Source of the DNA: Candidatus Woesearchaeota archaeon
Lineage (GTDB): Archaea > Nanobdellota > Nanobdellia > Pacearchaeales > UBA284
Assembly (NCBI GenBank): GCA_964354405.1
Contig: CAYGZP010000002.1
Location: forward strand, 5,061 to 69,060
DNA length: 64,000 nt
Direction of reading: 5' to 3'
Position 1 is the stretch's first letter. Each line of letters starts with the position of its first letter. The notes under the pieces are model-generated. The model saw nothing but the letters and a program-made list of their open reading frames with translations. It made no database searches and was not told the origin of the DNA. This document shows positions 5,557 to 52,029 of the stretch, piece by piece. The position numbers and the translations under genes are program-made.

Positions 5557-5963
5557 TTTTTTACTTTTTGTAAATAAGGTTCAAAGAATTTTCTAAAGGA
5601 CTTATAGATACCATTTGCTTTTCTGAAAGTCTCTGCTTTGGCCTTGTCTTTACTGTTCTTCTCGTATTTCGTATCAGTATTACGTTTTAAATTTGTAAAC
5701 CAAAAATTATCCAAATCCCCATTATTTCCATAATCAACAAAAACTCCCAGTTCTTCATCAGCTATACGCATATAAATTGCGTCATTTGCCGAATCTGCGT
5801 TAAAAAAGAGGATGCACTCTTTTGAATCATATACATCTGGTTGGTCTACCCAATATGCCTTTCCTTTTGGGAACTCCATAAGATAAATTTTAGGTTCCAT
5901 TGCGGGTTTCCCTTGCGTAAACAAGCACAATGCCAAACTTGAAACCAAAGTTGCGAGTGACAT
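5553..5963 (-). CDS. hypothetical secreted protein
   Basis: 136-aa ORF with an N-terminal hydrophobic segment 'LATLVSSLALCLF' (signal-peptide-like, LALC). Tightly packed with its neighbours. Confidence 0.4.
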   Translation of the reverse strand: MSLATLVSSLALCLFTQGKPAMEPKIYLMEFPKGKAYWVDQPDVYDSKECILFFNADSANDAIYMRIADEELGVFVDYGNNGDLDNFWFTNLKRNTDTKYEKNSKDKAKAETFRKANGIYKSFRKFFEPYLQKVKK

Positions 5964-48397: not shown

Positions 48398-48883
48398 ATG
48401 GAAGGCTATCTTACTTATTGTTATTGCGATCAGGATTCTGAAAAGTTCGAGAGAGGATGGGTAAAGGATGAAGGAAATCTTTGGCAAAAAACTGACCCAA
48501 ACTTCCAAGAAAGAACTTATTCAGAATGTCATTTAAAGCTCAGGGAAAAAATCCAGATAGGCGATTATTTGTTCTTCAGGACAAACTGGAGAAGGGCGCC
48601 TTATATTATCGGTTATTTTTTAATAGGCGATAAGAAAAAACAAGAAGAGTTCGAAGGCCCTCGGTTAATTGCTAAAGAGCGCCTTTGCATCGATTTTAAC
48701 TTTCAAATAGATGCAGAACTTTTAACATTCTTGAGCCCCAGGTTAAAGATGGCCCCGAAACCAGAAAAAATGTCATGGGCGCAATATGTTAATAACACTT
48801 TGGGCTGCAGAAAGGATATAGTCTTGAACGAAGAAAAAACCAAAAATCTTTTAAAAATTATACACTGTAATGTGTGGGCTTGA
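48398..48883 (+). CDS. hypothetical protein
   Basis: 161-aa ORF. No motif recognised. Confidence 0.35.
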   Translation: MEGYLTYCYCDQDSEKFERGWVKDEGNLWQKTDPNFQERTYSECHLKLREKIQIGDYLFFRTNWRRAPYIIGYFLIGDKKKQEEFEGPRLIAKERLCIDFNFQIDAELLTFLSPRLKMAPKPEKMSWAQYVNNTLGCRKDIVLNEEKTKNLLKIIHCNVWA

Positions 48884-48885
48884 AA

Positions 48886-49947
48886 ATGTATAATCTTAAA
48901 CAAAAATCAGAAAAACTTTCTCGCGCAGCATTATATAATCTTTACTGGCAAGAGAACAAAAGCATACGCAAAATCGCAGAAGAGACCGGGGTTAATGAAC
49001 ATACTATTTTACGATGGATGAGAGGATATAATATAAAAAGCAAAACTCTTAGCCAATCACAATTCCATCCTGAAAACTATCCTTCTAAAGAAGAACTAAA
49101 ACAATTATATGATAAACTGAAAAGTTTAAGAGCAGTTACTAAAGAACTAAGAATGAATAGAACCACTGTAAGAGGGCTTTATAGTAGATATAATATTTCA
49201 CTCATAGACAAAGGTAAATCTATTTCTTTTGTGCTATTGAAAGGCAAAAAAATTCCTTCTAAAGAAGAGCTTCAGGAATTAATCTCTCAAGGAAAAAGTG
49301 ATAGAAAGATAGCCAGAGACTATGACTTAGACCACACAACTATAATCCGCCTTAGAAGGAAATATAATATTGTAAAAAATTTGGGGCAAACATCGCCTTC
49401 AACTCAAGTAATCACTACAAACAACTTGCTAACAAAAAAACTAATTGAGCAGCGACAAAAAACAGCAAGAGCATCTTCAATAGAAAGTTTAACAGAAGAT
49501 GTCGTATTAGAGGAGGAAACGCAAGAAACCCCAAAAGAAGATTATGAAGGAGAGGCAGTCGCAGGCAAAGAAGGGATAGATAAAAAAGAAGAACCGCCAC
49601 AAGTCAAGGACTTTAGGGGGATACCATCTCTAAAAGGCATAAATAAAACTGCATTTTACCCCCAATTATCAAAAAAGGAATTTGTTCATTATTTAAGAGA
49701 AGTCAAAAAAAGATGCGACGATGAGTGCTTAAATTATTTTATTCGAAAAGGGAATCTTTCCTTAAGCATTATAAATGAAAAAAACAACGGTTGGGATTTT
49801 AAAAAGAAGATAGATCCTTCTGACCAAGTCTTTTTATATTATTTTGTAGGTGCATTAAAAGAAGTGGGCAACACCAAGATATTAAATTTATGGGAGAAAT
49901 TTTTAGTTTCAATTCATGGGGATCTGGACAGTTCTATCAAGCGTTAA
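48886..49947 (+). CDS. protein with three tandem helix-turn-helix repeats
   Basis: Three repeats of about 60 aa: 'LYNLYWQENKSIRKIAEETGVNEHTILRWMRGYNI', 'PSKEELKQLYDKLKSLRAVTKELRMNRTTVRGLYSRYNI' and 'PSKEELQELISQGKSDRKIARDYDLDHTTIIRLRRKYNI'. Confidence 0.5.
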   Translation: MYNLKQKSEKLSRAALYNLYWQENKSIRKIAEETGVNEHTILRWMRGYNIKSKTLSQSQFHPENYPSKEELKQLYDKLKSLRAVTKELRMNRTTVRGLYSRYNISLIDKGKSISFVLLKGKKIPSKEELQELISQGKSDRKIARDYDLDHTTIIRLRRKYNIVKNLGQTSPSTQVITTNNLLTKKLIEQRQKTARASSIESLTEDVVLEEETQETPKEDYEGEAVAGKEGIDKKEEPPQVKDFRGIPSLKGINKTAFYPQLSKKEFVHYLREVKKRCDDECLNYFIRKGNLSLSIINEKNNGWDFKKKIDPSDQVFLYYFVGALKEVGNTKILNLWEKFLVSIHGDLDSSIKR

Positions 49948-49977: not shown

Positions 49978-50544
49978 ATGAGAAAATTGTTTTTAATTGA
50001 GAGAGAACTCGGCAGAGTCCTCAAAAACATGCACGATATAAAGAAACTCGAAAAAAAGCTGAAGGCAGATATAAAAATCTCGAAGCAGGGCGAGATAAGT
50101 ATAAGCACCCAAGATCATTTTCAAGAGTATCTGATAGAGACTATCATCGAAGCTGTAGCTATGGGTTTCTCGTCCCATATAGCACTTCAGCTCGAAAACA
50201 CAGATTATGAGTTCAAGAAACTCAATGTTAAGACCTATACAAAAGCGCAGAATCAAGCGCGAGCAAAAGCAAGGCTGATAGGCCCGCAAGGAAAGACAAA
50301 AACAACGATTGAGGAATTAAGCGGCTGCAGCATCGCTCTGAGCGATCACACTGTAGCGATAATCGGCCATAGCAATAATGTTGAAACAGCCTCGAGAGCC
50401 ATCGAGTCTCTATTGCGGGGCTCAAAACAAGCAAACATCTTCAAATTCTTAGAAAGAAGCCAGGCAAGATTGAAAGCTCTCGAGGAAGAAAATATCGAAG
50501 AGCTCATTGAAATGCCCAAGGAAGATAAAAAGGAAAACTTATAA
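49978..50544 (+). CDS. KH-domain RNA-binding protein (archaeal Dim2/Pno1-like)
   Basis: Two KH-like modules. 'LIGPQGKTKTTIEELSGCSIALSDHTVAIIG' carries the GxxG loop. Confidence 0.6.
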   Translation: MRKLFLIERELGRVLKNMHDIKKLEKKLKADIKISKQGEISISTQDHFQEYLIETIIEAVAMGFSSHIALQLENTDYEFKKLNVKTYTKAQNQARAKARLIGPQGKTKTTIEELSGCSIALSDHTVAIIGHSNNVETASRAIESLLRGSKQANIFKFLERSQARLKALEEENIEELIEMPKEDKKENL

Positions 50545-50545
50545 A
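50539..50545 (+). promoter_or_regulatory. TATA-like box for the intron-containing tRNA
   Basis: TTATAAA centred 27 nt upstream of tRNA position 1. It overlaps the stop codon of the KH gene. Confidence 0.5.
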
Positions 50546-50602
50546 TCACTTTTTCTTTTCTCTCATATGCCCTGGTAGCTCAGTGGTAGAGCACGCGGCT
50601 GT

Positions 50603-51108
50603 AAACGGAGTTTAACATGAAGAAAGAAACAAGGACTTACAACGATAGGAGAAGATATATCATTGAAGCAGTGGCCAAGAGAAGAAAGAAAATCCGTCTA
50701 AAAGCAGTAGAACATTTGGGCGGGAAATGTATACGATGTGGATATAATAAATATCCAGAAGTGCTTGAATTTCACCATAGAGATCCTTTGAAGAAGGAGT
50801 TCAACGTTTCAAGCAAAGGCCATTGTCGAAGTTGGGAGAGAGTCCAAAAAGAAATAGAAAAATGCGATTTGTTTTGTGCAAATTGCCACAGAGAAGTTCA
50901 TGTTAAGCTAAATAAGTTAGCAGCTTCTCAAGGAAACTTGGGAATGAACAGCGAGTAAATTCAGGGAAACCCTAACGTAAAGTCGAGGGCAATCCTGAGC
51001 CAAGCCTCGAAAGAGGAAGGTGCAGAGACTAGACACTCGCCACCTAAAACTTAGAAATAAGTAATGGTGAAGGTATAGTCCTACCCTCTAAGAAATTGGA
51101 GAAGGTCG
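50603..51108 (+). mobile_element. group I intron (IC3-like core) with HNH endonuclease ORF
   Basis: P3 GCGAGT (50951-56) pairs with ACTCGC (51035-40). P4 CAGG (50962-65) pairs with CCTG (50994-97). 'GGGAAACCCTAA' and 'AATCCTGAGCCAAGCC' are present. P6 is CCTC-GAAA-GAGG (51005-16). 'GGAAGGTGCAGAGACTAGAC' contains P7 GACTA (51027-31), which pairs with TAGTC (51076-80). P8 is ACTTA-GAAA-TAAGT (51049-62). The intron ends ..TCG (terminal G at 51108) and follows a U. Confidence 0.8.
50617..50958 (+). CDS. HNH homing-endonuclease-like protein (intron-encoded)
   Basis: 'GGKCIRCGYNKYPEVLEFHHRDP...KCDLFCANCHREVH' is the CxxC...HH...N...CxxCH HNH zinc-finger layout. The stop codon lies at the P3/J3-4 boundary of the intron core. 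Confidence 0.75.
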   Translation: MKKETRTYNDRRRYIIEAVAKRRKKIRLKAVEHLGGKCIRCGYNKYPEVLEFHHRDPLKKEFNVSSKGHCRSWERVQKEIEKCDLFCANCHREVHVKLNKLAASQGNLGMNSE

Positions 51109-51246
51109 TAACCGCGGGGTCGCAAGTTCGAACCTTGCCCGGGGCGTTTTTATCTTCCCCCTTCCTTCTTTTTATATTATATTGATTGTATTTTTTCACA
51201 TAAATGTTTTTATATCTTCAAATCTTGATGTTGAAGGCTAAAGAAA

Positions 51247-51864: not shown

Positions 51865-52029
51865 GGGCCCGTAGCTCAGCCTGGCTTAGAGCACTGCTCT
51901 GATATTGGTTACAGCCTCTTCAAGAGGTGAGGAAACTGGAGCACCTTGTGCTTCACTGTAACTATATGACAAATCGCGAGATTTGTTTCAGACAGGCAGG
52001 GGTCCTGTGTTCAAATCACAGCGGGCCCA
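51865..52029 (+). tRNA. tRNA-Ile(GAT) with 89-nt canonical-position (37/38) BHB intron (51905..51993)
   Basis: Acceptor GGGCCCG/CGGGCCC, D arm GCTC..GAGC, anticodon stem CTGCT/GGCAG, loop CTGATA|intron|A, T arm CTGTG-TTCAAAT-CACAG. Exon CTGA pairs with intron TCAG (51988-91), flanked by 3-nt bulges. Intron helix GTTACAG/CTGTAAC. Confidence 0.85.

What the first reader, a model, noticed from the sequence alone, without database searches (positions are those of the whole stretch)
50594..51116. The intron disguises tRNA identity: the gene reads as Tyr(GTA) but should splice to Asn(GTT)
In the genomic sequence, the 5' anticodon-stem strand CGCGG is followed by CTGTAAA. A scanner would take this as a Tyr(GTA) loop with a 37/38 intron. 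That reading would make the intron end in ...GTCGTA. It would then lack both a terminal G and any BHB helix that I can build. Applying group I rules (5' exon ends in U at 50602, intron ends in G at 51108) joins CTGT to TAA. This gives the 7-nt loop CTGTTAA, anticodon GTT (Asn), with the intron between positions 35 and 36. Independent support comes from G1-C72 and discriminator G73. Archaeal tRNA-Tyr characteristically has C1-G72 and A73, while G73 is an Asn identity element.
Basis: inference. Interest (0 to 1): 0.6.

Follow-up and report, generated by a model that had tools for sequence, protein, structure and literature searches.

The report
Self-splicing intron in archaeal tRNA-Asn

Summary
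Window 50569-51146 is a tRNA gene split by a 506-nt group I intron (50603-51108; Rfam RF00028, 79.3 bits).

- **Junction:** the intron's guide sequence GUUA/GCAGC (50916-50924) pairs with both exon ends. This fixes the splice at CTGT|TAA, giving anticodon GTT (Asn), not GTA (Tyr).
- **Relatives:** uninterrupted tRNA-Asn genes read CTGTTAA. One same-genus pair (G012/G023) has identical exons.
- **Inventory:** the genome has no other tRNA-Asn, and it has a proper tRNA-Tyr elsewhere.
- **Host:** the contig is archaeal (LSU rRNA, MCM, thermosome, aIF-2).

Beyond the finding:
- The intron interrupts tRNA-Asn in 23 Woesearchaeota/Pacearchaeota-type genomes.
- The same intron, with a related HNH gene, sits at the same site in bacterial tRNA-Asn genes, some from Omnitrophota-like hosts. 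Trees fit a single crossing between domains.
- Published surveys place archaeal group I introns only in rRNA. One earlier archaeal tRNA case was dismissed as mis-binning.
- The endonuclease also occurs free-standing just downstream of tRNA-Asn genes.

Splicing itself was not tested.

The parts
50539..50546 (+). TATA-like box (TTATAAAT) about 27 nt upstream of the tRNA start; archaeal-type promoter
   Evidence: Read directly from the sequence. A similar A/T box starts at -30 to -34 in 18 of 22 homologous archaeal loci.
50569..50602 (+). tRNA-Asn 5' exon (positions 1-35), ending in U35. Its last 5 nt, GCUGU (50598-50602), form the exon strand of P1.
50603..51108 (+). Group I intron, 506 nt, IC3-like, inserted between anticodon positions 35 and 36
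   Evidence: RF00028 at 79.3 bits. Covariation test on homologues: 96.5% of cells paired, against 33-46% with slid partners.
50617..50958 (+). Intron ORF of 113 aa, an HNH-type homing endonuclease, lying in loop L1. Its last 14 codons overlap the guide sequence, P2 and the 5' strand of P3.
50916..50924 (+). Internal guide sequence. GUUA (50916-50919) pairs with the 3' exon UAAC to form P10. GCAGC (50920-50924) pairs with the 5' exon GCUGU to form P1, with a U.G pair.
   Evidence: P10 covariation.
50925..50944 (+). P2 hairpin (8 bp) with a GAAA tetraloop
   Evidence: All 8 pairs show compensatory changes.
50951..51106 (+). Catalytic core. P3 50951-56 with 51035-40; P4 50961-66 with 50993-98; P5 50970-73 with 50986-89; P6 50999-51001 with 51019-21; P7 51025-31 with 51076-81; P8 51041-44 with 51066-69; P9.0 51083-85 with 51104-06; P9 51086-51101 with a GAAA loop.
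   Evidence: Coordinates verified; pair counts.
51108..51108 (+). Omega-G, the last intron nucleotide
   Evidence: Invariant in alignments of the homologues.
51109..51146 (+). tRNA-Asn 3' exon (positions 36-73), starting U36 A37 A38 and ending in discriminator G73. No encoded CCA. Followed by a run of T.

Best explanation
The locus is the sole tRNA-Asn(GUU) gene of a Pacearchaeota/Woesearchaeota-type (DPANN) archaeon. A mobile group I intron of IC3-like architecture interrupts it between anticodon nucleotides U35 and U36.

Inferred mechanism:
1. The precursor is transcribed from an archaeal TATA-box promoter.
2. The guide sequence 5'-GUUAGCAGC-3' pairs with the last five nucleotides of the 5' exon (P1, with U35.G at the cleavage site).
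3. After attack by free guanosine, the guide pairs with the first four nucleotides of the 3' exon (P10). Omega-G (51108) then occupies the G-binding site in P7.
4. The exons are ligated, giving the loop CUGUUAA.

The 113-aa HNH protein encoded in L1 is a homing endonuclease. It is presumed to cut uninterrupted tRNA-Asn genes near the insertion site, so that repair copies the intron in.

What is shown: the ribozyme architecture, the guide pairings and their covariation, filled and empty alleles, gene inventory, archaeal host and distribution. What is inferred: catalysis, endonuclease activity and target, and the direction of the transfer between domains (probably bacteria to archaea).
For: - **Ribozyme:** RF00028 at 79.3 bits against a cut-off of 50.
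- **Structure test:** on 10 ORF-less homologues, 62 pairs were 96.5% paired against 33-46% for slid partners. 18 pairs have compensatory changes. U.G is 10/10. One P10 pair reads GC:6, AU:3.
- **Splice signals:** P1, P10, U-1 and omega-G are conserved in 22 genomes.
- **Product:** the in-silico spliced sequence folds as tRNA-Asn(gtt). ARAGORN with intron search calls Asn(gtt) with a 506-nt intron.
- **Inventory:** there is no second tRNA-Asn in a 98%-complete genome. A separate tRNA-Tyr has C1-G72 and A73.
- **Orthology:** the spliced tRNA matches the same-genus tRNA-Asn at 68 of 72 positions, against 52 of 72 for the genome's own tRNA-Tyr. The uninterrupted G012 gene is identical to the joined G023 exons.
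- **Archaeal host:** the same contig carries archaeal LSU rRNA. The window carries aIF-2, MCM, thermosome, archaeal CCA enzyme and a KH/Pno1-like protein. EndA is in the genome.
- **Distribution:** 21 of 401 genomes sampled from the order, plus 2 from other orders of the class. The host is always tRNA-Asn.
- **Mobility:** intact, truncated and absent ORF forms all occur.
- **HNH:** conserved CxxC, HH, N and CxxCH...H residues. Fold matches are almost all HNH nucleases, though with weak scores.
Against: - No RNA data, so splicing and the mature junction are unobserved.
- Pfam HNH scores are below the curated cut-off (17.4 against 21.4 bits; 9 of 16 family members match at E <= 0.01). Foldseek E-values are all above 0.1.
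- P1 loses its fifth pair (an A.C mismatch) in 6 of 22 genomes, and P10 has only 2-3 bp in 5.
- At the canonical 37/38 geometry a weak central helix (1 Watson-Crick pair plus 2 G.U pairs) can be drawn. A very relaxed endonuclease substrate cannot be ruled out formally.
- My junction parsing of the metagenome hits presupposed CTGT...G|TAA, so those counts are not independent tests.
Confidence: 0.93

Rival explanations
1. The gene is tRNA-Tyr(GUA) with a long intron at the canonical 37/38 position, removed by the archaeal splicing endonuclease EndA and a ligase.
For: The genomic loop reads CTGTAAA. The genome encodes EndA, and 9 other tRNA genes carry short protein-spliced introns. ARAGORN called 2 of 20 homologues Tyr.
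Against: - The central BHB helix scores 2.0 of 4 at that geometry, against 3-4 in the genome's own short-intron tRNAs.
- The base after U35 is A, G or T in homologues, so the 'anticodon' would be GUA, GUG or GUU.
- The gene has G1-C72 and G73, not C1-G72 and A73. A proper tRNA-Tyr exists on C9.
- This reading would leave the genome without any tRNA-Asn.
- Orthologues without an intron are Asn.
Confidence: 0.02
2. The intron-bearing tRNA lies on a bacterial scaffold wrongly binned with an archaeal genome. This is how Williams (2020) explained the single archaeal case seen then.
For: [quoted passage not shown] The same intron family does occur in bacterial tRNA-Asn genes. Other contigs of this bin look phage-like, according to earlier unchecked notes.
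Against: - The gene sits about 8 kb from MCM and 9 kb from a thermosome subunit, on a contig that also carries archaeal LSU rRNA.
- It has an archaeal-type body (G1-C72, no encoded CCA), a TATA box and neighbouring tRNAs with BHB introns.
- 22 further archaeal genomes from independent studies carry the intron in archaeal-type tRNA-Asn.
Confidence: 0.01
3. The intron is a decaying, non-splicing insertion and the gene is dead. Asn decoding would depend on something else, for example tRNA taken from a host cell or an unassembled gene copy.
For: DPANN archaea are host-dependent. The assembly has 51 contigs. No expression data exist.
Against: - The ribozyme core is strongly conserved, with compensatory changes across genomes that differ in their exons.
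- Exons remain intact and cloverleaf-competent in all 22 genomes.
- The genome is 98% complete and all other 19 amino acids have tRNA genes.
- The promoter box and T-run are kept.
Confidence: 0.04

Closest known systems
Bacterial and plastid IC3 group I introns in tRNA anticodon loops (tRNA-Leu(UAA) of cyanobacteria, Azoarcus tRNA-Ile, Agrobacterium tRNA-Arg; seed alignment of Williams 2020, bioRxiv 10.1101/2020.01.27.920355)
   Same: Same order of elements and near-identical core motifs: AAAUUC-P4-GAAA, CAAUCC.GA-GCC-AAG, GGU-G.AGAGACUA-GA-C, CACC...GGUG-AAGG.AUAGUCC. P2 and P9 are capped by GAAA. There is no P2.1, P5abc or P7.1/7.2. The minimal size is about 200 nt. P1 and P10 are built from anticodon-loop nucleotides.
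   Different: The host is an archaeon. The insertion is between positions 35 and 36 of tRNA-Asn. An HNH gene sits in L1 and overlaps the guide sequence.
[quoted passage not shown]
   Same: Same host tRNA and same insertion position, after the fourth loop nucleotide, with U-1 and omega-G. The dismissed Pacearchaeota case may be this very intron family; I could not check it.
   Different: The Pam37 seed intron has an extra hairpin between P7 and P3', and its P2 region differs. Here the archaeal host is shown by same-contig markers. Bacterial members of this exact family were found by me in metagenomes.
Archaeal group I introns in rRNA genes (Nawrocki, Jones & Eddy 2018, PMC6125680)
   Same: Same host lineages (Woesearchaeota, Pacearchaeota and other DPANN). 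This genome's own LSU rRNA also has one.
   Different: All 39 reported introns are in rRNA and belong to subgroups IA3 and IB4. This one is in a tRNA and is IC3-like.
Archaeal bulge-helix-bulge (BHB) tRNA introns cut by EndA
   Same: Located in the anticodon loop. Sister genomes carry such an intron in the same tRNA-Asn gene, two nucleotides downstream at 37/38.
   Different: BHB introns have no ribozyme and are removed by proteins. The BHB motif is not met here.
Free-standing homing endonucleases that act together with ORF-less introns (cyanophage psbA / T4-like systems; Bonocora & Shub, Zeng et al. 2009; recalled from memory, not checked here)
   Same: In G281 and G097 the intron lacks an ORF, and a closely related HNH gene lies 57-71 nt downstream of the tRNA gene.
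   Different: Here the same endonuclease family is also found inside the intron, and beside tRNA-Asn genes that have no group I intron (G078, G198). No activity was tested.

Membership tests
Group I intron (Rfam RF00028) | Covariance-model score above the curated gathering score | tested here: met
   79.3 bits against 50, over model positions 1-253.
Group I intron (Rfam RF00028) | P1 helix between the end of the 5' exon and an internal guide sequence, with a U.G pair at the splice site | tested here: met
   GCUGU pairs with GCAGC. U.G in 22 of 22 genomes.
Group I intron (Rfam RF00028) | Terminal guanosine (omega-G), and P10 pairing of the guide with the 3' exon | tested here: met
   The G column is invariant. 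P10 UAAC/GUUA has 4 bp in 17 of 22 genomes, with a compensatory G-C to A-U change.
Group I intron (Rfam RF00028) | Conserved P3-P9 core with the P3/P7 pseudoknot, supported by covariation | tested here: met
   62 pairs, 96.5% paired, 18 with changes on both sides; slid controls 33-46%.
Group I intron (Rfam RF00028) | Guanosine-dependent self-splicing | not testable with these tools
   Needs in-vitro transcription and a splicing assay.
Subgroup IC3 (bacterial tRNA type) | P2 present; no P2.1, P5abc or P7.1/7.2; GNRA loops on P2 and P9; core motifs shared with known IC3 tRNA introns | tested here: met
   Element-by-element comparison of alignment A1 with the published seed alignment. No formal subgroup classifier was available.
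tRNA-Asn(GUU) | Cloverleaf with anticodon GUU after exon ligation | tested here: met
   ARAGORN on the in-silico spliced sequence, and on the genomic sequence with intron search on.
tRNA-Asn(GUU) | Orthology to uninterrupted tRNA-Asn genes; discriminator G73 | tested here: met
   68 of 72 positions identical to the same-genus tRNA-Asn. G012 equals spliced G023. G73 is present in every archaeal and bacterial host gene classified.
tRNA-Asn(GUU) | Isotype-specific model score (tRNAscan-SE), and charging by AsnRS or non-discriminating AspRS | not testable with these tools
   tRNAscan-SE was not available; charging needs an assay.
Archaeal tRNA-Tyr(GUA) | C1-G72 pair, A73 discriminator and a conserved A36 | tested here: not met
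   The gene has G1-C72 and G73. The base after U35 varies (A, G or T) among homologues. The C9 gene meets all three features.
Archaeal BHB intron | Two 3-nt bulges separated by a 4-bp helix at the splice sites | tested here: not met
   The central helix scores at most 2.5 of 4 in 22 genes, against 3-4 of 4 in 8 control tRNAs of this genome. By hand, the short introns in the G001 and G003 tRNA-Asn genes score 3.5.
HNH (beta-beta-alpha-Me) homing endonuclease | Catalytic H...N...H motif with zinc-binding cysteine pairs | tested here: met
   Invariant C38, C41, H53, H54, C87, N89, C90, H91 and H95 in 16 homologues.
HNH (beta-beta-alpha-Me) homing endonuclease | Significant match to a family profile or to the fold | tested here: inconclusive
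   Pfam PF01844 at 17.4 bits, below the cut-off of 21.4; 9 of 16 members match at E <= 0.01. The model has pLDDT 80.9. Top Foldseek hits are nearly all HNH nucleases, but with E >= 0.27. The PDB sequence profile search found nothing.
HNH (beta-beta-alpha-Me) homing endonuclease | Cleavage of the intron-less allele near the insertion site | not testable with these tools
   Needs protein expression and a cleavage assay.

The most novel reading that the evidence does not exclude
The tRNA-Asn anticodon arm is a battleground shared by two domains. One intron-plus-endonuclease element moves between Omnitrophota-like bacteria and Woese/Pacearchaeota archaea, because its roughly 11-nt target (GGCTGT|TAACC) is the same in both. 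The short protein-spliced introns found at 37/38 in sister archaeal tRNA-Asn genes would then persist because they split that target, making the gene immune to the endonuclease. The four genomes with a free-standing endonuclease all have an interrupted target (2 by the group I intron, 2 by a BHB intron). If true, this gives a selective reason for archaeal tRNA introns. It would also point to physical contact, or shared viruses, between ultra-small bacteria and DPANN archaea.
Probability: 0.2. Interest if true: 0.8.

Novelty: new member of a known kind. Interest (0 to 1): 0.62.

Why it matters
Archaeal tRNA introns are taken to be protein-spliced BHB introns. The one survey of archaeal group I introns found all 39 in rRNA (PMC6125680). 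The one large survey of tRNA group I introns set aside its single archaeal hit as a binning error (bioRxiv 10.1101/2020.01.27.920355).

- **Domain range:** this locus, with 22 further archaeal genomes and 45 archaeal-type metagenome copies, shows that self-splicing introns do live in archaeal tRNA genes. They sit next to BHB introns, in cells that also have EndA.
- **Annotation:** standard tRNA finders miss the gene or give it the wrong identity, so such genomes appear to lack tRNA-Asn.
- **Evolution:** the same intron and endonuclease occupy the same site in bacterial tRNA-Asn genes, and trees fit a single crossing. This is a clean example of a mobile element crossing between domains by targeting a universally conserved sequence.
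- **Natural series:** one gene is found uninterrupted, with a group I intron carrying the nuclease gene, with an ORF-less group I intron (in two genomes with the nuclease gene free-standing alongside), or with a BHB intron (again in two genomes with the free-standing nuclease). That series can be used to study how introns and homing endonucleases associate.

Tried and rejected
- **First BHB scan:** searching whole genes was too permissive. Controls and test genes scored alike, so I replaced it with a fixed-length sliding test. My automatic handling of the G001 and G003 controls in that test was off by one base, and I corrected it by hand.
- **The look-up of encoding contigs:** The context of the more distant HNH homologues (P0022, P0071, P0112, P0117) could not be read, so I used the genome search with the HNH profile instead.
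- **Rfam on several loci at once:** failed internally. I classified the other group I hits by BLAST against this genome's rRNA region. L064 and L069 stayed unplaced.
- **Outgroups for rooting:** plasmid and phage collections gave only partial matches to the generic P3-P6 core, in phage protein-gene introns. The direction of transfer therefore rests on midpoint rooting and on IC3 tRNA introns being otherwise bacterial.
- **PDB sequence profile search with the HNH alignment:** no hit.
- **Similarity between BHB and group I introns:** the short 37/38 introns of G001 and G003 show no similarity to the group I intron and sit at a different position. They are not decayed copies of it.
- **Immunity idea:** BHB introns occur in 6 of 17 non-group-I tRNA-Asn genes, against 9 of 43 tRNA genes overall in this genome. 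Interrupted targets in 4 of 4 genomes with a free-standing nuclease are expected by chance about 27% of the time. There is no statistical support.
- **One script returned unrun:** it held a leftover typed protein fragment. I reran it reading only from loci.

Full report
**What is in the window**

Positions 50569-50602 and 51109-51146 are the two halves of a tRNA gene. A 506-nt insert (50603-51108) separates them. The anticodon stem CGCGG/CCGCG spans the insert. The 5' half ends in CTGT and the 3' half begins with TAA. The insert matches the Rfam group I intron model over its whole length (RF00028, 79.3 bits, cut-off 50). It holds a 113-codon ORF at 50617-50958. ARAGORN in default mode and the Rfam tRNA model do not see the gene. 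With intron search on, ARAGORN reports tRNA-Asn(gtt) with a 506-nt intron.

**Where the splice sites are**

Only one of the possible junctions obeys the group I rules: U at 50602 before the 5' splice site and G at 51108 before the 3' splice site. The intron supplies the matching guide sequence.
- GCAGC (50920-50924) pairs with exon GCUGU (50598-50602) to form P1. It puts the required U.G pair at the cleavage site.
- GUUA (50916-50919), directly upstream, pairs with the first four bases of the 3' exon, UAAC, to form P10.

The guide is therefore complementary to the ligated product GCUGU|UAAC. The loop becomes CUGUUAA and the anticodon GUU. Each of the three alternative 'Tyr' junctions also folds as a cloverleaf, so folding alone does not decide the question. 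The guide pairing does.

**Comparative test of the structure**

The intron occurs in 21 of 401 sampled genomes of the same order, counting this genome and one copy truncated by a contig end. It also occurs in 2 genomes from other orders of the class. Named relatives are 'Candidatus Woesearchaeota archaeon' MAGs from several studies.

In all 22 genes with both junctions present:
- the 5' exon ends in CTGT;
- the intron ends in G;
- the 3' exon starts with TAA.

The first intron base is A, G or T. The apparent GTA of this window is therefore an accident of one intron sequence.

I aligned ten ORF-less precursors (A1) and counted pairs for a hand-built structure holding P1, P10, P2-P9 and the P3/P7 pseudoknot.
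- 96.5% of 620 cells form standard pairs, against 33-46% when partners are slid by 1-3 columns.
- 18 of 62 pairs change on both sides.
- All eight P2 pairs covary.
- Where the last anticodon-stem pair is A31-U39 instead of G31-C39, the P10 pair changes from G-C to A-U.

The element order and core motifs match published bacterial IC3 tRNA introns segment by segment. There is no P2.1, P5abc or P7.1/7.2.

**Identity of the tRNA**

- The spliced product has G1-C72 and G73.
- It matches the same-genus (G001) tRNA-Asn at 68 of 72 positions. It matches this genome's own tRNA-Tyr at only 52 of 72.
- Relatives carry uninterrupted tRNA-Asn genes reading CTGTTAA (11 genomes). Others have a short canonical 37/38 intron (6 genomes).
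- In one genus the uninterrupted G012 gene is letter for letter the joined exons of the intron-bearing G023 gene.
- The 98%-complete genome has no other tRNA-Asn, by ARAGORN, BLAST and a pattern search.
- A separate tRNA-Tyr(GTA) on contig 9 has C1-G72 and A73.
- With this gene counted as Asn, all 20 amino acids are covered.

A BHB motif is not present. At the canonical geometry the central helix scores 2.0 of 4. At any placement in the loop it reaches at most 2.5. Eight short-intron tRNAs of this genome score 3-4.

**The host is an archaeon**

- The window encodes archaeal IF-2, MCM, a thermosome subunit, the archaeal CCA-adding enzyme and a Pno1-like KH protein.
- The same contig begins with an archaeal LSU rRNA gene, which has its own group I intron.
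- The genome encodes EndA.
- A TATA-like box lies about 27 nt upstream, and a run of T follows the gene. The box recurs in 18 of 22 homologous loci.

This rules out the mis-binning explanation given for the single archaeal hit in the 2020 survey. In 151 relatives, every other group I hit that could be placed lies in the rRNA operon. tRNA-Asn is thus the only tRNA host found.

**The intron ORF**

- The protein keeps two CxxC pairs, HH, N and H...H in all homologues.
- Its Pfam HNH score is just below the cut-off.
- A confident model (pLDDT 80.9) finds almost only HNH nucleases among its best fold matches, though with weak scores.
- At least 385 clusters at 90% identity exist. All named members come from Pacearchaeota, Woesearchaeota or Nanoarchaeota.
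- The ORF always lies in L1, and its last codons overlap the guide, P2 and P3.
- Seven of the 22 genomes have an intact ORF. Others have truncated remnants or none, with minimal introns of 192-225 nt. This is the usual life cycle of a homing endonuclease.
- In G281 and G097 the intron has no ORF, and a close HNH homologue lies 57-71 nt downstream of the tRNA gene. In G078 and G198 the same free-standing gene follows a tRNA-Asn with only a short 37/38 intron.

**The same element in bacteria**

I scanned metagenomes with an invariant 22-nt core motif that contains no exon sequence. This gave 110 occurrences.
- 45 lie in archaeal-type tRNA-Asn genes: G1-C72, no encoded CCA, median locus GC 0.335.
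- 56 lie in bacterial-type tRNA-Asn genes: U1-A72, G73, mostly with encoded CCA, median locus GC 0.45.
- All sit at the same site.

The bacterial contigs carry dnaX, an RND permease and PEP carboxylase. The PEP carboxylase beside L078 is 69-71% identical to proteins of 'Candidatus Omnitrophica' bacteria. Long bacterial-host introns carry a homologous HNH ORF, 53-62% identical, at the same L1 position.

In a tree of 95 distinct ribozyme cores, all 49 archaeal-host introns lie on one side of a branch (support 89/77; 90% of bootstrap trees). Under midpoint rooting they are nested among bacterial-host introns. The HNH tree splits the domains with 100/99 support and puts the free-standing copies inside the archaeal side. 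One crossing between domains fits both trees. Transfer from bacteria to archaea is the more economical direction but is not proven, because no outgroup could be obtained.

**Literature**

- Nawrocki et al. 2018 (PMC6125680) report 39 archaeal group I introns, all in rRNA.
- Williams 2020 (bioRxiv 10.1101/2020.01.27.920355) lists 21 types of bacterial tRNA group I introns. These include an 'Asn.4Ug' type at this position with a different architecture. The paper dismisses its one archaeal hit.
- Searches of the held library found no report of a group I intron in an archaeal tRNA gene.
- The tRNAscan-SE 2.0 paper states that the program is not designed to find such introns.

**Verdict**

The intron is a new member of a known kind, the IC3 tRNA group I introns with a homing endonuclease. 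Its interest lies in three things:
- the archaeal host;
- the cross-domain distribution;
- the coexistence of group I introns, BHB introns and free-standing nuclease genes at one gene.

Splicing, endonuclease activity and the idea that BHB introns protect the target all remain untested.

Noticed in passing
G000 contig C2:5-249 (-), outside the window (locus L002:1-249): The archaeal LSU rRNA gene at the start of the same contig carries its own group I intron (48 bits, cut off by the contig end). This is the known archaeal rRNA type. The genome therefore has group I introns in both rRNA and tRNA.
   Followed up: partly
window 51865-52029 (+): tRNA-Ile(GAT) lies 719 nt downstream of tRNA-Asn and has an 89-nt intron, which ARAGORN places at 40/41. 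The Asn-Ile gene pair is syntenic in several relatives (G022, G026 C16, G043, G633).
   Followed up: no
G000 contig C9:6390-6514; also L012, L208, L210, L212, L214, L216: tRNA-Tyr(GTA) genes of this order nearly always carry an intron of about 51-71 nt. ARAGORN places it at 35-37, i.e. within or next to the anticodon rather than cleanly at 37/38. The exact junction was not resolved.
   Followed up: no
L017:1336-1659 (+), L188:1501-1809 (-), L186:1501-1806 (+), L187:1501-1821 (-): Free-standing HNH genes of the intron-endonuclease family lie 57-71 nt downstream of tRNA-Asn genes. Two of those tRNA genes have an ORF-less group I intron and two have only a short 37/38 intron. These copies lack the C-terminal 'KLAAS..MNSE' tail, which the ribozyme's guide/P2/P3 region encodes in intron-borne copies.
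   Followed up: partly
L128:2233-2254 (+) and 5799-5820 (-): One bacterial metagenome contig carries two inverted, near-identical copies of the intron-bearing tRNA-Asn gene about 3.5 kb apart.
   Followed up: no
L178 (IMG/VR contig IMGVR_UViG_3300035537_000177), intron core at 1336-1357: A contig classed as viral carries a bacterial-type tRNA-Asn with a 566-nt intron plus HNH, next to a P4-family primase gene. It may be an integrative element sitting at tRNA-Asn, or a phage-borne tRNA.
   Followed up: no
G026 contigs C24:64-647 and C16:15640-15829: This MAG has two copies of the intron-bearing tRNA-Asn. One is complete, on a 2-kb contig. The other is cut by a contig end and lies next to tRNA-Ile, as in this window. 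This could be strain mixture or a true duplication.
   Followed up: no
L213 (G051:C1:590087-590245): ARAGORN calls a gene with C1-G72 and A73 'Asn(gtt) with an 86-nt intron'. It is probably a tRNA-Tyr. Asn/Tyr confusion by junction choice therefore happens in both directions in this lineage.
   Followed up: no
window 48874-49947 (+): A 357-aa ORF two genes upstream of the tRNA has several helix-turn-helix matches (HTH_50, HTH_23, HTH_38, transposase-type HTH) and no other recognised domain.
   Followed up: no
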